Shown here: positions 3,172-10,812 of the stretch, piece after piece
Layout of the letters: every line of letters starts with the position of its first letter
How positions within the stretch are numbered: the first letter of the stretch is position 1
Origin: an uncultured virus (IMG/VR IMGVR_UViG_3300028173_000008)
Lineage: Duplodnaviria > Heunggongvirae > Uroviricota > Caudoviricetes
Virus record (IMG/VR): IMGVR_UViG_3300028173_000008
Length of the DNA stretch: 20,000 nucleotides
Reading direction: 5' to 3' (one strand)
Made by a program: the position numbers and the translations under genes
The notes under the pieces: generated by a model
What the model was told of the DNA's origin: nothing
What the model saw: only the letters and a program-made list of their open reading frames with translations
The model's database searches: none

Positions 3172-4356
3172 ATGACGCTGAACACATTGAAAAGAGACCT
3201 GGTGGCCCTCAACCGTGTTGCCCGGGATCTAGCATCCCGTGAGGCCGCTGCGGTCACCGATACGGACAAGCTGACACACAGGGTGGCCTCCCGCTGGGTG
3301 TCCGGTGCGTCCGGTGCCATGCGCCGTGAGTACGACATCATGCTTCGCCTCCAGACGCTAGAGGGTGCGGCCAACGTCAAGGACGGCATCTGGTGGAAGA
3401 AGGGCAAGCGCGGCCTTCCTCTGGCACAGGCGGCGTTTGAGAAGGCCACAGTAGACCCCGAGTGGTTCTCCACCGGCTACACCCGCATGTATGAGGCGGT
3501 CGAGGCCAACGTGGCCCGTACCATCTCGTCGATGGGCCTGCCGGTCGAGGCGGACGAACTCATCAATCTGACCCTGATGGGCCAGTCGTTGACGAAGGAG
3601 GACAAGGCGGCCACGCCGATCCCCCGGTCAGCAGGCAAGACCTTGAAGAGCGGGATCCTGTCCGGCAAGGAGTCCCCTGTCATGGTCGGCAAGGGTGTCA
3701 TCGCCTCGTGGATCAAGCAGAAGCTCATTACCCTCAAGCGTGACGCCCCTCCCGAACAGGAGATGCCCACGGACGAGGACGGCAAGGACTACGAGTTCGC
3801 TGCCCCGAGTGATGAGCCGGAGCCCGAATACAGCACCCCGCATGAGTTCCTGTCAGCCATCACCTACCGTAAGATGGGTGACCCGTTGGGCAAGAAGTTC
3901 CGTGCCTTGATGAAGAAGGCGTTTACCAACAACCGGGACTGGTCCCCCGCCATGCTGTACTGGCTGGAGCAGGCCGAGAAGGGCCGCTTCGTGCAGAGGA
4001 ACCAGATGGCCGATTGGGCGAACATCTCACCCGGCAGCTTCTCCGTGAACTACTGGAAGGCCGCTTGGGCGGCGTTCTTCAAGGAACTGTGGGCCGACAA
4101 GAGCCTCCTCAAGGAGATCAAGAAGCGCCTACAGGCCGAGGAATTGTTCGACGAGATCGTCAAGCCCGACCTGACCAAGCTCAAGGACGGCAACCCGCTG
4201 TCCATCATCCTCCCCCGCAACCGGAACCGTAAAAAGAAGAAGGCCGACAGGGACATGGTCGAGCACGTCACCACCCGGTGGATGGACGGCAGCATCATCG
4301 AGAAAGTCGTCCACCGTCATGTCGCCGAAAGGCCCGACAGCGTCCCGGTTTCCTGA
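3172..4356 (+). CDS. Hypothetical protein (394 aa), possibly a divergent sigma-factor-like HTH protein
   Basis: Long ORF with RBS and typical codon usage. YEAVEANVARTISSMGLPVEADELIN and VIASWIKQKLITLKR loosely resemble sigma region 2. RNQMADWANISPGSFSVNYWKAAWAAF resembles a region-4 HTH. The CDS is well supported; the function is weakly supported. Confidence 0.6.
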   Translation: MTLNTLKRDLVALNRVARDLASREAAAVTDTDKLTHRVASRWVSGASGAMRREYDIMLRLQTLEGAANVKDGIWWKKGKRGLPLAQAAFEKATVDPEWFSTGYTRMYEAVEANVARTISSMGLPVEADELINLTLMGQSLTKEDKAATPIPRSAGKTLKSGILSGKESPVMVGKGVIASWIKQKLITLKRDAPPEQEMPTDEDGKDYEFAAPSDEPEPEYSTPHEFLSAITYRKMGDPLGKKFRALMKKAFTNNRDWSPAMLYWLEQAEKGRFVQRNQMADWANISPGSFSVNYWKAAWAAFFKELWADKSLLKEIKKRLQAEELFDEIVKPDLTKLKDGNPLSIILPRNRNRKKKKADRDMVEHVTTRWMDGSIIEKVVHRHVAERPDSVPVS

Positions 4357-4396
4357 ACCCCACTCATCCTGCCCCCTTACAGCCCCCTCTGTTTCC

Positions 4397-4426
4397 TTGA
4401 CGTCGTGCCCTAACGGCGACTACCCT
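4397..4426 (+). promoter_or_regulatory. Sigma70-type promoter directly upstream of the structured non-coding region
   Basis: TTGACG (4397-4402), 18 nt spacer, TACCCT (4421-4426). Predicted start near 4433, with no RBS/ORF following. Confidence 0.5.
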
Positions 4427-4429
4427 TTG

Positions 4430-5000
4430 TACTTGGTTCGACCGACCGACCTGATCTCTGAAAATGAGACGTACTGTTGCCGCTCCGGTGCCGTTGAGTA
4501 CTGGTCCCCTTGGGGATCGTGGAAAGCCACTGGAGGCAGAGAGTCATAGTCCTAATGACTTGGCAGGTATCCGGGTAACCGGAGGGGAAGCCATTGAGCT
4601 TTGAGAGCGCCCCCACAGGACGGTCTGTTCTTTGAACATGTCGAACCTCGTCATCTGCGGGACTCCTTGGTCCCCTCGATGGTGAAGGTGATTTGAGGTT
4701 TGCCCTTTCCGTATGGGAGAGGGCCTGGATGGGAGCCTTCAGGTGTAACGAGGAACGCACCTGACCCCGGGTAGCCCATCACGGACTGCGGTAGAATGAC
4801 CCTGACTCTCAGGACCATGATGAGAGAAAAGGGCGTCCGTAGGACGACCGGATGATGAGTAGGGATAGCGGTTAAGATTCCAGTGCTTGTTCTCGTCAAC
4901 GTAGTAGCGACTGCAACGGCAGCCGGAAAATCCAGCGCAGGTTACCCCTAGTGGGGCTTGGGCGACGTGTATTAAAAACTCCCAAGTTTGCCTCTCCGCC
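4430..5000 (+). ncRNA. Candidate large structured non-coding RNA (family unassigned)
   Basis: 720-nt gap without a credible ORF in an otherwise tightly packed genome. More than 12 closely packed hairpins, e.g. GGTCCC-CTTG-GGGATC 4503-4518, GTGG-AAAG-CCAC 4519-4530, TCCGG-GTAA-CCGGA 4570-4583, GCCCTTTCC..GGGAGAGGGC 4702-4724, TCAGGTG..CACCTGA 4739-4764, CGTCC-GTA-GGACG 4834-4846. Long-range helix 4532-4540/4987-4995. Confidence 0.7.
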
Positions 5001-5079
5001 AAAGTTCCACCCCAATAGTTTCAAGTTTAGACCCCGGCCTCGGTATTCTGTGTCTACGGGACCTCTGTAGGAGGGTGCT

Positions 5080-5637
5080 GTGACGATCAGGACATCAGAG
5101 TACGAACGCTTCGACACCCGCAAGATGGCTGTGGGCTGCCTGCATATCCTGTTAAGCCGTGCTCATGCGGACTTCCCTGGGACTACAAGGGCTGCTCCTG
5201 CACGTTGGGTGGTTGTTCAGTTGGCCCCTGGAGGGCCTCTAGCTCCCGCCTACAAGGGCTACTTCCCCTACAAGGTCATCTGGTACGTCTGGCAAAACGT
5301 GGTCGTTCCTGTGCTGGAAGACCCGACCTACCAGATCGTGACAGAGGACACGACGTCCCTGCGTGTGTCGTTGAACCAAGCCCTGATTGAGGAGGGTGAC
5401 TACAAGGGGGTGACCGACAAGATCGAAGCAGCCCTGATCGTCCGTCTCAAGGAACAGGGTATGGTACAACCGGATGCAGAACCGGAGTCGTCCAGCACGC
5501 TGGTTGATCCTGTTGCACCCGGGGAGCCTATCGTCCTGCCTGACACAGACCCCATGGACACGGGGGACTCCCTTGTGTGGCCGGAGGGGCACCCCAAGTT
5601 GACGTACCCCGAAGTGGATGGAGGCCCCAATGGCTGA
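5080..5637 (+). CDS. Hypothetical protein (185 aa) with an acidic/Pro-rich C-terminus
   Basis: GTG start after AGGAGGG. Stop overlaps the start region of the next gene. No recognisable motif. Confidence 0.6.
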   Translation: MTIRTSEYERFDTRKMAVGCLHILLSRAHADFPGTTRAAPARWVVVQLAPGGPLAPAYKGYFPYKVIWYVWQNVVVPVLEDPTYQIVTEDTTSLRVSLNQALIEEGDYKGVTDKIEAALIVRLKEQGMVQPDAEPESSSTLVDPVAPGEPIVLPDTDPMDTGDSLVWPEGHPKLTYPEVDGGPNG

Positions 5638-5848
5638 CGAGAAGAAAAAGGTTCCTGTCCCCAAGACGCTCTGGATCAAGTGCCGTGCGAGTGAGAAGTG
5701 TGAGGGCAACCAGGCCGAGATCATCATGCAGCGGGCACAGAAGCCCATGGGTCGTGCTGGGGGAGCCTTCAACCTGGCGGAGCGGGCCGGAAAGCTCATC
5801 AGATATCGCTGTACGACCTGCAAGGGCATCTTCCAGATCGGTCAGTAG
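5630..5848 (+). CDS. Small zinc-ribbon protein (72 aa)
   Basis: ATG at 5630 after GGAGG. C-x5-C (CRASEKC) plus IRYRCTTCK CxxC, a typical Zn-ribbon layout. Confidence 0.65.
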   Translation: MADEKKKVPVPKTLWIKCRASEKCEGNQAEIIMQRAQKPMGRAGGAFNLAERAGKLIRYRCTTCKGIFQIGQ

Positions 5849-7554: not shown

Positions 7555-7692
7555 GGTGATGCGGAGGGGGTTCGTTTTCCCTTCTATGAGCCCTACTCTG
7601 ATGGAGTCCATGATGAAAACCCACCCCTCTAATACAGGGTGGTGCTCGTGCCACCCCCTTGCCCGAGGCGTCTTCGTAGGAGTAGTCACACA

Positions 7693-10600
7693 ATGATTTT
7701 CAGTCAGGCTGCCGGTGACCGAAAGGTCCGTGCTTTTTCCTTGTCCAGTTCGTTCCTTGAGGAGTTCCACGGCAAGCAGCCCAACTGGGGTCCGGTAGGC
7801 TATTTCACGTTCAAGCGAACCTACGCCCGTGAGCTACCCGAGGGTGGCACGGAGGAGTTCTGGCAGACGTGTAAGCGGGTCGTCGAGGGTTGCTTCCAGA
7901 TCCAGAAGATCCACTGCCGCCGGATGGCCCTCCCGTGGAATGAGGCCAAGGGCCAGAACTCGGCGCAGGAGATGTTCCGCCGCATGTTCGATTTCAAGTT
8001 CACGCCACCGGGGCGTGGCCTGTGGATGATGGGCACGGACGTCGTGTATAGCCGGGGCTCCGCCGCCCTCCAGAACTGCGCCTTCGTGTCCACGGACAAG
8101 CTCGCTGAAGATTTCTCCGGCCCCTTCACCTTCCTGATGGACCTTTCGATGCTCGGCGTGGGTGTCGGTGGAGACACCAGAGGGAAAGGGGCTGTCCGTA
8201 TCCAGCGCCCCGACATGTCCGTCACGCCCTACGTGGTGGATGACAGCCGGGAGGGCTGGGTGGACCTGGTCCGTACCTTGCTGGAGTCGTTCGTGGGCAA
8301 GGCCCAGTACCCGAGGGTCATCGACTACTCGCCGGTGCGGGGCCGTGGGGCAGCCATCAGCACTTTCGGGGGCGTAGCCTCCGGGCCACTCCCACTCCAG
8401 AAACTGGTCGAGGGCATCACGAAGATCCTGCTCCCCAAGGGCGTCCGGGCTGAGTTCGACGTGGACTACGACGAGGCCACGGGCAAGATCGGGAACGTGA
8501 TCGTGACGTTCAAGGGCAAGAAGGCTCCCACGCCGTACCGTATCGGGTCAGCCCAGATCGTCGATGTGTTCAACTACATCGGCAAGTGCGTCGTGGCCGG
8601 TGGCGTCCGCCGGACGGCAGAGATCATGTTCGGAGAGCCCGACGACGAGGATTTCGTGACCCTCAAGCAGGACGAGGAGGCCCTCAACGACCGCCGTTGG
8701 GCGTCCAACAACTCCGTGTTCGGGTACGTGGGCATGGACTACACGGACATCGTGGATTCCATCGCCAAGAACGGGGAGCCTGGTATCTGCTGGCTGGAGA
8801 ATGCCCGTGCATACAGCCGCATGGGACACCCTGCGGACAACAAGGACTGGCGGGTCGTGGGTACGAACCCCTGCGGTGAGCAATCCCTTGAGTCCTTTGA
8901 GCTTTGCAACCTCGTGGAGACCTACCCGGCCCACCACGATGACTACGACGACTACGAGCGCACCCTCAAGATGGCGTACCTCTACGCCAAGACCGTGACC
9001 CTCGTTCCTACACACATCCCAAGGGCCAACGCTGTCATGCAGCGCAACCGCCGCATCGGCTGTTCCATGTCTGGGATCACACAGGCGATGGCCAAGCTGG
9101 GGAGACGCTCGTTCCTGAACTGGTGCGATGAGGGCTATGACTACGTGCAGCGCCTCGACCGCATCTACTCTGAGTGGCTGGGCTGTGGCCTCTCGGTCAA
9201 GACGACGACCGTGAAGCCTTCTGGGTGCCAAGTACAGGGCACTCTCATAAACACAGAAAAGGGTATTTTCAGGCTGTCCGAGTTGGGGGATGTGCAAGGA
9301 GAGATGTGGCAGGATATTTCTGGGTGGACTTCCCTTGGGAAAAACATCACTAAGTTCTTTGTGAATGGGGATGGTCCTACTAAGCAGTTACGGACAGAGG
9401 ATGGAAATCTTCTTGAGGGCTCTTTGCCTCATCAGTACCAGGTGGTGGTTGATGGCGATGTTGTTTGGAAGAAGGTTGCTGATATTGTGGTAGGTGACCA
9501 ACTTTTGGTTTCTTTGGGGGACTACCAGAACAAGACAGAGCCTTCTCTTTTTCAGGTCCCTGCCCCATACCACAATACCAAGAGCATTCTGCAACCGAAG
9601 GAGATGAGTCCTGCGTTAGCATGGTTTCTCGGGATGTTGTATGGGGATGGTTCTGTCCATAAGAAGGGGTTGCGGATATCTTTCAATCGGAAAGAGGCTT
9701 CCCTTGTCCATTTCATTTCCCAGACGGTGAAGAGTTTGTTTGGGTTGGATGCTCTTGTGGACGATGATCACAGTATATACATCAACTCGACCCACCTTTT
9801 GGCTTACCTAGAAGCCAACCATATGCTGAAGGACTTTTCACACTCCTTGGAGATGCCTTTGGCCATACGCAGCGCAGGGGTAGACAGCATCAAAGCGTTC
9901 ATCACGGGTTTGTGGCGGGCTGATGGAGCGATCTATAACCGTTCTACTTGGGGCATCTGTACGGTGTCTGAAGGTTTCGCTAGAGACCTTTTGGTCCTTT
10001 GCCGAGCTGTGGGTTTCAATGTCAAGCTGAAAAATGCGGGTCCGGGTGGTTGGGGCTCTCGGGATAGGTGGCTCATTACTTCGCGGATGGGGGAACCTGA
10101 TTTGCTCCGGTATGTGTCCCGTGAATTACGGGAGCGAGTCTTTGGGGAGGGTTTGTGGTTGGATCCTGTGGTAGATGTCACGGATTCCTATAGCCCGACC
10201 TTTGATATCGAGGTTCCTGACACGAAAGAATATGTGGCGAATGGGGTGTTGTCCCACAACACCGTCAGCCTCTTGTGTGGGGCGACACCCGGTATCCACT
10301 ACCCCCACTCGGAGTTCTACATCCGGCACATTCGGGTGCAGAACACGTCCCCGCTGGTCCAGGCCGCACGGGACGCAGGATTCGACGTCCACCCCGACCC
10401 CTACGCCGACGACACGTCCGTGGTGGCGTTCCCCGTCCGGGAGAACCACTTCACGAAGGGCAAGGCGGAGGTGACGGTCTGGGAGCAGTACCTGAACGCC
10501 GAGGACTTGCAGAAGCACTGGGCCGACAACCAGGTCTCCGTCACGATCACCTTCACGAAGGACGAGGTGCGGGATCTCAAGCCCGCACTCGAGGCTTTTG

Positions 10601-10812
10601 AGGATCGGCTCAAGGGTATCTCGATGTTGCCCCTGGCGGACGAGGATCACGGTTACCAGTTCGCTCCGTACCAGGAGATCGATGAGGAGCAGTACGCCTC
10701 GATGGTAGCCCGCACAAAGGCCATCGACTTCGGCGGGGCCGACACCCACGACAAGGATTCGGAAGACAAGTTCTGCACGGGTGAAGCCTGCACCATTCTC
10801 CCCCCCAAGTAG
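7693..10812 (+). CDS. nrdJ: Class II (adenosylcobalamin-dependent, monomeric RTPR-type) ribonucleotide reductase, intein-containing
   Basis: FKRTYAR, PPGRGLW, ALQNCAF, MLGVGVG, catalytic TNPCGEQ..LCNL, RNRRIG, TTVKPSG/TVSLL and the C-terminal cysteine pair FCTGEAC. ATG at 7693 after AGGAG. Confidence 0.92.
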   Translation: MIFSQAAGDRKVRAFSLSSSFLEEFHGKQPNWGPVGYFTFKRTYARELPEGGTEEFWQTCKRVVEGCFQIQKIHCRRMALPWNEAKGQNSAQEMFRRMFDFKFTPPGRGLWMMGTDVVYSRGSAALQNCAFVSTDKLAEDFSGPFTFLMDLSMLGVGVGGDTRGKGAVRIQRPDMSVTPYVVDDSREGWVDLVRTLLESFVGKAQYPRVIDYSPVRGRGAAISTFGGVASGPLPLQKLVEGITKILLPKGVRAEFDVDYDEATGKIGNVIVTFKGKKAPTPYRIGSAQIVDVFNYIGKCVVAGGVRRTAEIMFGEPDDEDFVTLKQDEEALNDRRWASNNSVFGYVGMDYTDIVDSIAKNGEPGICWLENARAYSRMGHPADNKDWRVVGTNPCGEQSLESFELCNLVETYPAHHDDYDDYERTLKMAYLYAKTVTLVPTHIPRANAVMQRNRRIGCSMSGITQAMAKLGRRSFLNWCDEGYDYVQRLDRIYSEWLGCGLSVKTTTVKPSGCQVQGTLINTEKGIFRLSELGDVQGEMWQDISGWTSLGKNITKFFVNGDGPTKQLRTEDGNLLEGSLPHQYQVVVDGDVVWKKVADIVVGDQLLVSLGDYQNKTEPSLFQVPAPYHNTKSILQPKEMSPALAWFLGMLYGDGSVHKKGLRISFNRKEASLVHFISQTVKSLFGLDALVDDDHSIYINSTHLLAYLEANHMLKDFSHSLEMPLAIRSAGVDSIKAFITGLWRADGAIYNRSTWGICTVSEGFARDLLVLCRAVGFNVKLKNAGPGGWGSRDRWLITSRMGEPDLLRYVSRELRERVFGEGLWLDPVVDVTDSYSPTFDIEVPDTKEYVANGVLSHNTVSLLCGATPGIHYPHSEFYIRHIRVQNTSPLVQAARDAGFDVHPDPYADDTSVVAFPVRENHFTKGKAEVTVWEQYLNAEDLQKHWADNQVSVTITFTKDEVRDLKPALEAFEDRLKGISMLPLADEDHGYQFAPYQEIDEEQYASMVARTKAIDFGGADTHDKDSEDKFCTGEACTILPPK
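9226..10260 (+). mobile_element. Intein with LAGLIDADG homing endonuclease (345 aa)
   Basis: Interrupts KPSG|TVS. Starts CQVQGTLINTEKG and ends TFDIEVPDTKEYVANGVLSHN, followed by Thr. LAGLIDADG blocks LAWFLGMLYGDGS and FITGLWRADG. Abrupt switch to T/A-ending codons at these boundaries. Confidence 0.93.

What the first reader, a model, noticed from the sequence alone, without database searches (positions are those of the whole stretch)
4397..5000. Candidate large, intricately folded phage ncRNA (~570 nt) with its own promoter
Seen: the only long non-coding gap in a window where most genes overlap or abut. It is preceded by TTGACG-N18-TACCCT and is largely tiled by stems: 4485-4503, 4503-4518 (CUUG loop), 4519-4530, 4542-4560, 4570-4583 (GNRA loop GUAA), 4626-4638, 4644-4700 enclosing 4659-4674, 4702-4724, 4728-4780 enclosing 4739-4764, 4834-4846, 4911-4922, 4945-4956 and 4957-4986. 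GGAGGCAGA (4532-4540) can pair with TTTGCCTCT (4987-4995), closing a ~460-nt multi-domain unit. Several stems rely on G-U pairs that work only on the + strand, supporting a + strand RNA. Known: large structured RNAs of unknown function (GOLLD, ROOL) occur in phages and prophages. Inference: this is a divergent member of such a class or a new class. It lacks the hallmarks I recognise for tmRNA, RNase P or group I/II introns.
Basis: partly seen in the sequence, partly recalled or inferred. Interest (0 to 1): 0.9.

Follow-up and report, generated by a model that had tools for sequence, protein, structure and literature searches.

The report
New large folded RNA of huge phages
The gap holds a roughly 420-530-base RNA of no known family, kept in shape by evolution in at least nine huge marine phages, always just ahead of the same small gene in the DNA-replication block; what it does is unknown.

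Summary
Confirmed. Window 4357-5079 is a 723-base gap with no conserved reading frame, in a fragment of a huge marine phage. Its + strand encodes a multi-helix RNA. The conserved core is 4444-4853, and a conserved hairpin and motif extend it to about 4972.

I found homologues in eight other contigs (133-536 kb, one a complete 435.8 kb genome). Each lies upstream of the same 185-aa gene family, although the flanking proteins are only 27-40% identical.

Covariation is strong:
- Domain 1: 41 of 57 pairs change on both sides, 95% paired.
- P6/P7/P9: 20 of 24 pairs.
- P11-P15: 22 of 40 pairs.
- No shuffle out of 500 reached any of these values.
- A loop-loop kissing contact (4664-4669 with 4749-4754) is complementary in 9 of 9 sequences, in several unrelated sequence versions.

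Rfam gives no family, and ARAGORN finds no tRNA or tmRNA. A TTGAC -35 box sits 35-50 bases upstream in 8 of 9 sequences.

Its proposed closing helix (4532-4540 with 4987-4995) is not supported; the true domain closure is 4444-4453 with 4616-4625.

Function is unresolved. My best guess is a folded leader or RNA-protein partner of the gene behind it. The main rival is a free-standing ornate RNA like ROOL or GOLLD.

The parts
3172..4356 (+). Upstream gene, 394 aa, all-helical, no known family. Syntenic homologues occur in L008 and L024.
   Evidence: ORF. No Pfam or PHROG match. 33% and 31% identity to the proteins in the same position in L008 and L024. Low-confidence helical model, pLDDT 56. No fold match at E <= 0.001.
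4397..4426 (+). Promoter-like site: TTGACG, 18 bases, TACCCT
   Evidence: Read. TTGAC is present 35-50 bases before P1 in 8 of 9 strong homologues; L078 lacks it. The -10 is weak, and the site is not called by the consensus scan.
4444..4625 (+). Domain 1, closed by helix P1 (4444-4453 with 4616-4625). It holds P2 (4455-4469), P3 (4472-4481 with 4561-4569), P4 (4483-4535, tip hairpin 4503-4518), P5 (4541-4561), P6 (4570-4583, GUAA loop) and P7 (4584-4587 with 4611-4614).
   Evidence: Model R3 finds 9 of 9 sequences at E 5e-55 to 5e-4. 57 pairs are 95.3% paired against 70.9 in shuffles; 41 pairs change on both sides; 0 of 500 shuffles reach this; slid controls give 35-49%. P1 has 8 of 9 pairs with changes on both sides.
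4588..4600 (+). Most conserved single-stranded motif, AAGCCAUUGAGCU, in the loop closed by P7
   Evidence: Nearly invariant in the alignments. The pattern scans that recovered homologues were built on it.
4626..4638 (+). P8 hairpin
   Evidence: A hairpin occurs at this place in the five first-found sequences with unrelated sequences, from single-sequence folds. MAFFT misaligns it, so it was not counted.
4646..4688 (+). P9: base CCU/AGG (4646-4648 with 4686-4688), outer stem (4649-4655 with 4678-4684), internal loop UGC/CUC, inner stem (4659-4663 with 4670-4674) and loop L9 (4664-4669)
   Evidence: On a structure-blind MAFFT alignment of 5 sequences, 15 of 24 pairs of P6/P7/P9 change on both sides, 90% paired, 0 of 500 shuffles. 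With 9 sequences, 20 of 24 pairs, 90.8% paired.
4702..4724 (+). P11 hairpin
   Evidence: Helix 1: 91.7% paired, 3 of 9 pairs with changes on both sides (5 sequences).
4728..4780 (+). P12 (4728-4733 with 4775-4780) enclosing P12a (4739-4745 with 4758-4764) and loop L12a (4746-4757)
   Evidence: Helices 2 and 3: 4 of 6 and 6 of 7 pairs change on both sides.
4664..4754 (+). Kissing-loop contact: L9 UCCUUG (4664-4669) with CGAGGA (4749-4754) of L12a
   Evidence: Complementary over 4-7 pairs in 9 of 9 sequences. Versions: CCUU/AAGG (5 sequences), CCGAAC/GUUCGG, AUCCC/GGGAU, CCCC/GGGG, CACCUGA/UCAGGUG. Cognate duplexes average -7.2 kcal/mol and non-cognate -3.6.
4782..4850 (+). P15 (4782-4784 with 4848-4850) enclosing P13 (4800-4803 with 4830-4833; 4806-4811 with 4821-4826) and P14 (4834-4846)
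   Evidence: Helices 4-7. P13 inner has 6 of 6 pairs with changes on both sides. P15 is weak (77% paired). The P14 sequence UCCGNAGGA or a compensated form is seen in all 9 sequences by reading.
4854..4944 (+). Variable linker, poorly conserved even between the window and L013
   Evidence: Alignments.
4945..4972 (+). 3' hairpin P16 (4945-4956) followed by a conserved motif of the form YUGGNCGANNUGUAU (4957-4972)
   Evidence: Seen by eye in the block alignment of five sequences. Not counted formally.
4985..5079 (+). Spacer before the gene, with AAGTTYC-like words, the Shine-Dalgarno AGGAGG (5069-5074) and the GTG start at 5080
   Evidence: Sequence. The motif A[ACG][GCT]TT[TC]C[AG] is enriched in the 320 bases before the gene in 6 of 10 loci. 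No + strand terminator-like site was found.
5080..5637 (+). Downstream gene, 185 aa, of a wide family with no known function. It always follows the RNA.
   Evidence: ORF. 260 cluster representatives at E <= 0.001. 54 of the 150 listed were scanned and none has a Pfam family above its cut-off. Model pLDDT 66, no fold match. Clamp-loader-like genes follow it.

Best explanation
Two claims with different certainty.

(1) Near certain, about 0.95. The + strand of 4444-4853, with a further conserved hairpin and motif to about 4972, encodes a large RNA whose three-dimensional fold is under selection. It has at least 15 helices in two parts: a domain closed by the long-range helix P1, and a row of hairpins P8-P15. 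It also has a GNRA tetraloop hairpin, invariant unpaired motifs and a conserved kissing contact between loops L9 and L12a. It is a new RNA class, found so far only in a clade of huge marine phages, once per genome.

(2) Inferred, about 0.45. It is made by host RNA polymerase from the TTGAC promoter early in infection, as the 5' part of the transcript that runs on into the 185-aa gene and the clamp-loader genes. It works together with the product of that gene, either as a folded leader that the protein binds to set its own or the operon's expression, or as the RNA half of an RNA-protein particle.

Shown: structure, strand, synteny, copy number. Inferred: transcription start, co-transcription, any protein binding.
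For: Structure and homology:
- The window gap matches L008 by nhmmer at E 6e-14 although the flanking proteins are about 30% identical. A profile reaches L024 at E 2e-15.
- Models R1, R3 and R2 find 9 of 9, 9 of 9 and 5 of 9 sequences.
- No shuffle out of 500 reaches them, and slid controls give 35-56% paired against 91-95% observed.
- The kissing loop is complementary in 9 of 9 sequences.
- Core fold z is -3.47 on + and -1.91 on -. G-U cells outnumber A-C cells 41 to 9.
- No conserved ORF: translated matches fall in several frames on both strands at the same conserved bases, and most indels against L013 are not multiples of three.
- Single copy in the complete 435.8 kb genome (117.6 bits, next best 13.6) and in the window's own record.

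Link to the gene:
- In all 9 sequences the RNA lies 200-760 bases upstream of, and co-oriented with, a member of the 185-aa family.
- Four of the nine were found through the protein alone. Of 7 distinct protein-anchored loci tested, 4 gave 44-64 bits just upstream, 1 gave 21.6 bits and 2 gave nothing.
- Loci with divergent forms of the protein carry other long non-coding stretches in the same place. In type B (L010, L011, L029) 10 predicted pairs keep pairing through changes on both sides. L027 has an 850-base gap behind TTGACA-N17-TATAGT.
- No + strand terminator-like site lies between the RNA and the gene.
Against: - No transcript evidence of any kind.
- The -10 hexamer is weak, and L078 has no TTGAC.
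- A 400-500-base fold with a kissing loop and invariant loops is far more elaborate than known protein-binding leaders.
- A repeated AAGTTTC-like word between the RNA and the gene in 6 of 10 loci could be a separate promoter or operator for the gene. That would make the RNA its own transcription unit.
- Synteny alone cannot separate a working link from the general conservation of gene order in this block. The upstream gene is conserved too.
- R2 and R3 were built from the window sequence alone, and their alignments are fitted to the structure, which inflates the percentage paired. The MAFFT-based count does not have this bias.
- Only 9 sequences, several of them related, so shuffle counts are not probabilities.
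Confidence: 0.45

Rival explanations
1. A free-standing, trans-acting ornate RNA in the manner of ROOL, GOLLD or OLE. It would be released as a discrete molecule of about 530 bases that folds, perhaps multimerises through its loop-loop contact, and acts as a scaffold, cage or decoy during infection. On this reading its place next to the 185-aa gene is only conserved gene order.
For: - Size, number of helices, invariant loops, the GNRA loop and a strongly covarying kissing loop are what is seen in large phage RNAs.
- Passages of bioRxiv 10.1101/2024.12.08.627333 report that covarying kissing loops in ROOL and GOLLD turned out to be contacts between molecules.
- The two loops here are not self-complementary, so the contact could be within one molecule or between two.
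- The RNA has its own -35 box.
- A conserved 3' hairpin and motif are followed by a spacer with repeated words that could belong to the next gene's own control region.
- The RNA bases are better conserved than the flanking proteins.
Against: - No terminator-like site after the RNA.
- No tRNA genes nearby (0 in 20 kb), unlike many ROOL and GOLLD loci as described.
- No Rfam match.
- Strict adjacency to one gene family in 9 of 9 sequences.
- No transcript data.
Confidence: 0.35
2. An origin-of-replication transcript. A structured RNA made at the head of the replication gene block would form a persistent hybrid with the template and prime DNA synthesis, as ColE1 RNA II does. (The ColE1 mechanism is recalled, not taken from a call.)
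For: - Position at the start of a block with clamp-loader-like, RNR, RecD-like, RecA/UvsX-like and SbcC-like genes.
- A length close to that of RNA II (recalled).
- Repeated short words in the spacer that could be iterons.
- A switch of gene direction near 3180.
Against: - Cumulative GC skew of the complete 435.8 kb relative falls steadily from one end to the other, with no turn at the locus near 60 kb.
- The repeats are absent in 2 of 10 loci (L024, L077) and not enriched in 2 more (L008, L080).
- Nothing in the fold points to hybrid formation.
Confidence: 0.07
3. A self-processing or catalytic RNA, such as an unrecognised ribozyme or the remnant of an intron or mobile element.
For: Invariant unpaired bases in internal loops (UGC/CUC in P9, AAGCCAUUGAGCU in the P7 loop) and a compact multi-domain fold.
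Against: - No group I, group II, RNase P or small-ribozyme model matches at E up to 10 or in homologues at E up to 1.
- The element lies between two separately conserved genes, each with its own start, not inside one.
- One copy per genome.
- No endonuclease, reverse transcriptase or transposase gene beside it.
Confidence: 0.06

Closest known systems
ROOL RNA (Rfam family; phage and prophage large ornate RNA)
   Same: Phage-borne, several hundred bases long, many helices, conserved loop-loop contacts found by covariation, function unknown (description from passages of bioRxiv 10.1101/2024.12.08.627333).
   Different: No match to the Rfam model at E up to 10. No tRNA genes nearby. Tied to one protein-coding gene. 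Multimer formation not tested.
GOLLD RNA (Rfam family)
   Same: A large structured RNA of phages with two structural parts and kissing loops.
   Different: No Rfam match. Smaller than GOLLD (its size is recalled). No tRNA in or beside it.
OLE RNA with its partner proteins OapA, OapB and OapC
   Same: A large RNA encoded next to genes for proteins that bind it (the partnership is recalled; the OLE dimer is described). This is the model for an RNA-protein reading of the synteny seen here.
   Different: OLE is bacterial rather than phage-borne. No Rfam match. Binding of the 185-aa or 394-aa protein is untested.
Autoregulatory translational operators of phage replication genes (T4 gene 32 and gene 43; the gene 32 candidates in PMC10690425, passages seen)
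   Same: Structured RNA in the 5' leader of a replication-module gene of a phage.
   Different: Those are tens of bases long; the candidates in PMC10690425 span 29-151 bases. This one is 400-530 bases with tertiary contacts. The T4 details are recalled.
Candidate structured RNAs mined from IMG/VR (PMC10690425)
   Same: Same source collection and same kind of evidence (covariation in intergenic regions).
   Different: The listed candidates are at most 151 bases. The invariant 13-base motif was not found in the supplementary text that could be searched, but three files, which may hold the alignments, could not be searched. A fragment of this RNA could therefore be among them.

Membership tests
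GOLLD / ROOL / OLE / HEARO / raiA and other Rfam large RNAs | Match to the family's covariance model | tested here: not met
   No family reaches its gathering score in the 20 kb window. At E up to 10 on 4300-5150 the only row is a C/D snoRNA model at 16.7 bits against a gathering score of 70. Nothing matches in the RNA regions of six related loci at E up to 1.
ROOL / GOLLD | Frequent location beside tRNA genes in phages or prophages (as described) | tested here: not met
   ARAGORN finds 0 tRNA or tmRNA genes in the window.
ROOL / GOLLD | Homo-multimeric cage held by intermolecular kissing loops and A-minor contacts | not testable with these tools
   A covarying kissing loop exists. Whether it forms within or between molecules needs native gels or cryo-EM.
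tmRNA | tRNA-like domain plus tag reading frame | tested here: not met
   ARAGORN finds none. No Rfam tmRNA model matches.
RNase P RNA | Match to bacterial RNase P models with the conserved P4 regions | tested here: not met
   No Rfam match at E up to 10. The GGAAAGCC word at 4521-4528 is not conserved in L008 or L019.
Group I / group II introns | Match to the intron models, and insertion within a gene whose exons join into one frame | tested here: not met
   No Rfam match. The flanking ORFs are two separately conserved proteins. The downstream family starts at the same methionine region in its relatives. No longer, fused form was searched for.
Cis-regulatory 5' leader of the downstream gene | Lies between the promoter and the start codon of the regulated gene, on the same transcript | tested here: inconclusive
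   Position and orientation fit in 9 of 9 sequences, and no terminator-like site intervenes. Co-transcription is not shown, and a possible second control region lies in the spacer.
Origin primer RNA (ColE1 RNA II type) | Coincides with the replication origin | tested here: inconclusive
   There is no GC-skew turn at the locus in the complete relative. However, the skew of this genome shows no turn anywhere, so it does not locate an origin.

The most novel reading that the evidence does not exclude
This is a new class of ornate phage RNA that acts as a machine in its own right. Its covarying L9-L12a contact would join copies into a defined multimer, or clamp a compact core, that recruits the 185-aa protein and the clamp-loader proteins encoded behind it. 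That would make it an RNA-scaffolded replication or host-takeover particle specific to phages of 400-540 kb.
Probability: 0.2. Interest if true: 0.9.

Novelty: new variant of a known kind. Interest (0 to 1): 0.82.

Why it matters
Large RNAs with conserved three-dimensional folds are rare, and each class found so far (ribosome, RNase P, introns, OLE, ROOL, GOLLD) has turned out to do something unusual. This one has an unusually clean signature from few sequences: about 16 helices, and a kissing loop that has been rewritten several times while staying complementary.

It also sits at a fixed place in the replication block of some of the largest known phages, next to a protein family of 260 clusters with no known function. 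That gives a concrete handle on two unknowns at once, and a good target for cryo-EM. The model built here can be used to annotate the locus in other huge-phage assemblies.

Tried and rejected
- Rfam at gathering and at loose thresholds: nothing.
- Phage GenBank collection by blastn: no match.
- First DNA pattern scan was mis-specified by one base and found nothing. The corrected patterns recovered known loci plus L014 and one chance hit, L033.
- Pattern scan of 185,579 species genomes: 12 loci, all at most 21.9 bits with R1, like the chance hit L033 at 20.4 bits. So no homologue was found there by that pattern.
- Sequencing runs: no RNA holder listed. Contigs of four DNA runs laid on 4300-5700 showed no differences, so there was no population variation to use.
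- Shine-Dalgarno / anti-Shine-Dalgarno reading of the UCCUU and GAGGA loops: dropped. The loops have unrelated sequences in L076, L077, L078 and L080 yet stay complementary to each other.
- Origin reading: GC skew of the complete relative has no turn at the locus.
- Flanking proteins: no Pfam, PHROG, PDB sequence or fold match. Weak sigma-factor and TFIIB rows (E above 1) and one Sigma70_r2 cluster at rank 18 in the Atlas are only a lead for the upstream protein. The Atlas gave nothing for the downstream protein.
- Type B loci (L010, L011, L029) and L027 as members of the class: only weak or partial model hits. L010 scored 15.4 bits with R1 and 20.4 bits (E 0.0017) with R3; L029 and L011 scored lower; L027 had E 0.5. 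Membership is not established.
- R2, built from the window alone, missed L024, L076, L077 and L080 at E <= 0.01, although P14 and P12a are visible in them by eye.
- The exact AAGTTTC word does not occur in the window.
- Literature: four full-text searches found no description of this RNA.
- A wider protein alignment was too divergent for a locus scan, so a smaller one was used.

Full report
**Context.** The window is the reverse strand of bases 5263-25262 of a 73,378-base IMG/VR virus record estimated to be 14% complete, so it is a fragment of a very large phage.
- The long ORFs include a helicase-like fragment, a B12-type ribonucleotide reductase interrupted by an intein, a RecD2-like helicase, a RecA/UvsX-like recombinase, an SbcC-like ATPase and a clamp-loader-like protein.
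- Near-identical DNA is held in seawater metagenome runs. Contigs of three runs from three studies that are not flagged as possible sources lie on 4300-5700 without a difference.

**The observation.**
- The + ORF 3172-4356 and the + ORF 5080-5637 leave 723 bases in which every + frame carries stops of all three kinds. The other gaps between the long ORFs are at most about 240 bases.
- The - strand has open stretches of 82-116 codons, but they are not conserved as protein. Translated matches to related loci fall in several frames on both strands at the same conserved bases, and most indels against the closest relative are not multiples of three.
- Fold energies beat dinucleotide shuffles on the + strand: z -2.87 for 4430-5000 and z -3.47 for the core 4444-4853, with 0 of 100 shuffles as good. 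The - strand is weaker, at z -2.13 and -1.91.

**Relatives.**
- The two flanking proteins found only near-identical contigs at first.
- A search with the downstream protein gave relatives of 33-69% identity. An alignment of them located syntenic loci in other viral contigs and one metagenome contig.
- In each there is again a long gap between a homologue of the 394-aa protein and a homologue of the 185-aa protein.
- The gap DNA itself is homologous. nhmmer gives E 6e-14 between the window and L008, whose flanking proteins are 30-33% identical, and E 2e-15 for L024.
- A motif scan added the complete, terminally repeated 435,804-base genome G001.
- A profile search showed that the 185-aa family has 260 cluster representatives. 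A scan with some of them brought 7 further distinct loci. The 134-position model R1 found the RNA just upstream of the gene in 4 of them at 44-64 bits, weakly in 1 (21.6 bits), and not in 2.
- Nine clear members are therefore known: the window, L013, L008, L019, L024, L076, L077, L078 and L080. Those in viral contigs lie on records of 133-536 kb.
- Pattern-selected chance matches score at most 22 bits.
- The RNA is single-copy in the complete genome and in the window's own record.

**Structure, domain 1 (4444-4625).**
- It is closed by P1 (4444-4453 with 4616-4625).
- It holds hairpin P2, a three-way arm (P3, P4 with tip 4503-4518, P5), the GNRA hairpin P6 (4570-4583), and P7, whose loop carries the near-invariant AAGCCAUUGAGCU (4588-4600).
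- The P3-P5 arm appears to be dispensable: the domain 1 matches in L078 and L077 are only 95 and 79 bases long.

**Structure, the rest.**
- P8 (4626-4638).
- P9 (4646-4688), with a conserved UGC/CUC internal loop.
- P11 (4702-4724).
- P12/P12a (4728-4780).
- P13 and P14, enclosed by a short P15 (4782-4850).
- After a variable linker, five sequences share a hairpin (4945-4956) and a motif of the form YUGGNCGANNUGUAU (by eye).

**Covariation.**

| Helices | Alignment | Sequences | Pairs changed on both sides | Cells paired | Shuffle mean | Slid controls |
|---|---|---|---|---|---|---|
| P6, P7, P9 | structure-blind MAFFT | 5 | 15 of 24 | 90.0% | 72.0% | 39-61% |
| P6, P7, P9 | aligned to R1 | 9 | 20 of 24 | 90.8% | 68.3% | 38-56% |
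| Domain 1 | aligned to R3 | 9 | 41 of 57 | 95.3% | 70.9% | 35-49% |
| P11-P15 | aligned to R2 | 5 | 22 of 40 | 92.7% | 76.3% | 41-53% |

- None of 500 shuffles reached the observed values in any row.
- The three model-based alignments lean towards the structure, and the sequences are related, so the shuffle counts are not probabilities. The MAFFT-based count and the slid controls do not share that bias.
- G-U cells outnumber A-C cells 22 to 1, 13 to 3 and 6 to 5 in three alignments, which fits the + strand.

**Kissing loop.** Loop L9 and loop L12a are complementary in all nine sequences, although their sequences differ between lineages:
- UCCUUG with CGAGGA in the window, and CCUU with AAGG in four others.
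- CCGAAC with GUUCGG in L078.
- AUCCC with GGGAU in L080.
- CCCC with GGGG in L076.
- CACCUGA with UCAGGUG in L077.

Cognate loop duplexes average -7.2 kcal/mol and non-cognate ones -3.6. This rules out my earlier idea that the loops mimic a Shine-Dalgarno pair. It shows a tertiary or quaternary contact under selection.

**Ends.**
- TTGAC lies 35-50 bases before P1 in 8 of 9 sequences, followed after 17-18 bases by a weak A..T hexamer.
- The consensus scan does not call the site in the window.
- No + strand terminator-like site follows the RNA.
- The downstream gene has an ordinary AGGAGG and a GTG start.
- The spacer holds AAGTTTC-like words that are enriched before the gene in 6 of 10 loci. 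Their meaning is open.

**What it is not.**
- No Rfam family matches the window region at E up to 10, or the relatives at E up to 1.
- ARAGORN finds no tRNA or tmRNA.
- The element lies between two separately conserved genes, not inside one, and no endonuclease, reverse transcriptase or transposase lies beside it.
- Four literature searches found no description.
- A survey of IMG/VR (PMC10690425, passages read) lists candidates of at most 151 bases. Its large supplementary files could not be searched, so a fragment of this RNA may be listed there.

**How it may work.** The fold, strand, synteny and copy number are shown. Everything about action is inferred.
- I rate a working link with the gene behind it as most likely (0.45): a folded leader or RNA-protein partner. 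The adjacency holds in 9 of 9 sequences and in protein-anchored searches. Divergent forms of the protein come with other long non-coding stretches in the same place. Nothing that looks like a terminator intervenes.
- A free-standing ornate RNA like ROOL or GOLLD is the main rival (0.35). The fold is far more elaborate than known leaders, and covarying kissing loops in those RNAs proved to be contacts between molecules.
- An origin primer (0.07) has no support from GC skew.
- A ribozyme or intron remnant (0.06) has no support from models or context.

**Flanking proteins.** Neither could be assigned.
- The downstream protein models as a small alpha/beta domain (residues 10-130, pLDDT about 85) with a disordered tail that ends in a conserved W-P-E-G-H..L.Y-P motif. 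It has no fold match.
- The upstream protein is helical with a low-confidence model. Only non-significant rows point to sigma factors and TFIIB.

Noticed in passing
L010:4325-4919, L011:4296-4898, L029:1814-2407: In three contigs with a divergent, shorter form of the 185-aa protein, the same position holds a different non-coding stretch of about 590 bases. It lies behind TTGCTC-N17-TAGATA and after an extra - strand ORF. 10 predicted pairs keep pairing through changes on both sides. It contains a GNRA hairpin and a GGGAAACC..GACCGAUUGA word that resembles P6/P7 of the window RNA. Model hits are weak (15-20 bits), so kinship is open.
   Followed up: partly
L027:1320-2170 (same contig as L083): Another relative of the gene is preceded by about 850 non-coding bases behind TTGACA-N17-TATAGT. 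These contain a GAGGAAUCCAUUGAAC word like the invariant motif, but no significant model hit (E 0.2-0.5).
   Followed up: partly
window 4985-5030, and the 320 bases before the gene in L013, L019, L076, L078, L085: Repeated AAGTTTC/AACTTTC-like words in both orientations lie between the RNA and the gene: 9 in L078, 4 each in L019 and L085. They are enriched 6- to 24-fold over the rest of the locus in L019, L076, L078 and L085; in L013 both copies in the locus lie there. None occur before the gene in L024 or L077. They could be operators, iterons or a phage promoter word.
   Followed up: partly
window 7639-10812: The class II (B12-type) ribonucleotide reductase gene carries an intein with a LAGLIDADG endonuclease domain (Pfam Intein_splicing and LAGLIDADG_3 at residues 545-874).
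   Followed up: no
window 3172-4356: The upstream 394-aa helical protein has no family. The only leads are non-significant fold rows to sigma factors and TFIIB and one viral Sigma70_r2 cluster at rank 18 of the Atlas feature search. If it is a sigma-like factor, the RNA lies between a transcription factor gene and the replication block.
   Followed up: partly
window 5080-5637: The 185-aa protein belongs to a family of 260 cluster representatives (149 at E <= 1e-10) with no Pfam domain in the 54 scanned. It has invariant P, W and P residues and a conserved C-terminal W-P-E-G-H..L.Y-P..V motif after a disordered linker.
   Followed up: partly
L078:1362-1456, L077:1412-1490: Domain 1 is only 95 and 79 bases long in these two homologues. 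The P3-P5 arm of the window RNA therefore seems to be an optional insertion.
   Followed up: no
L008:8757-8824: A sub-threshold match to the Rfam RAGATH-18 model (30 bits against a gathering score of 44.9, E 0.075) lies about 4 kb downstream of the RNA in a related contig.
   Followed up: no
G001 whole record (L050-L071): Cumulative GC skew of the complete 435.8 kb relative falls almost monotonically from one end to the other, with no V shape. That fits one-directional replication or transcription from the terminal repeat.
   Followed up: no
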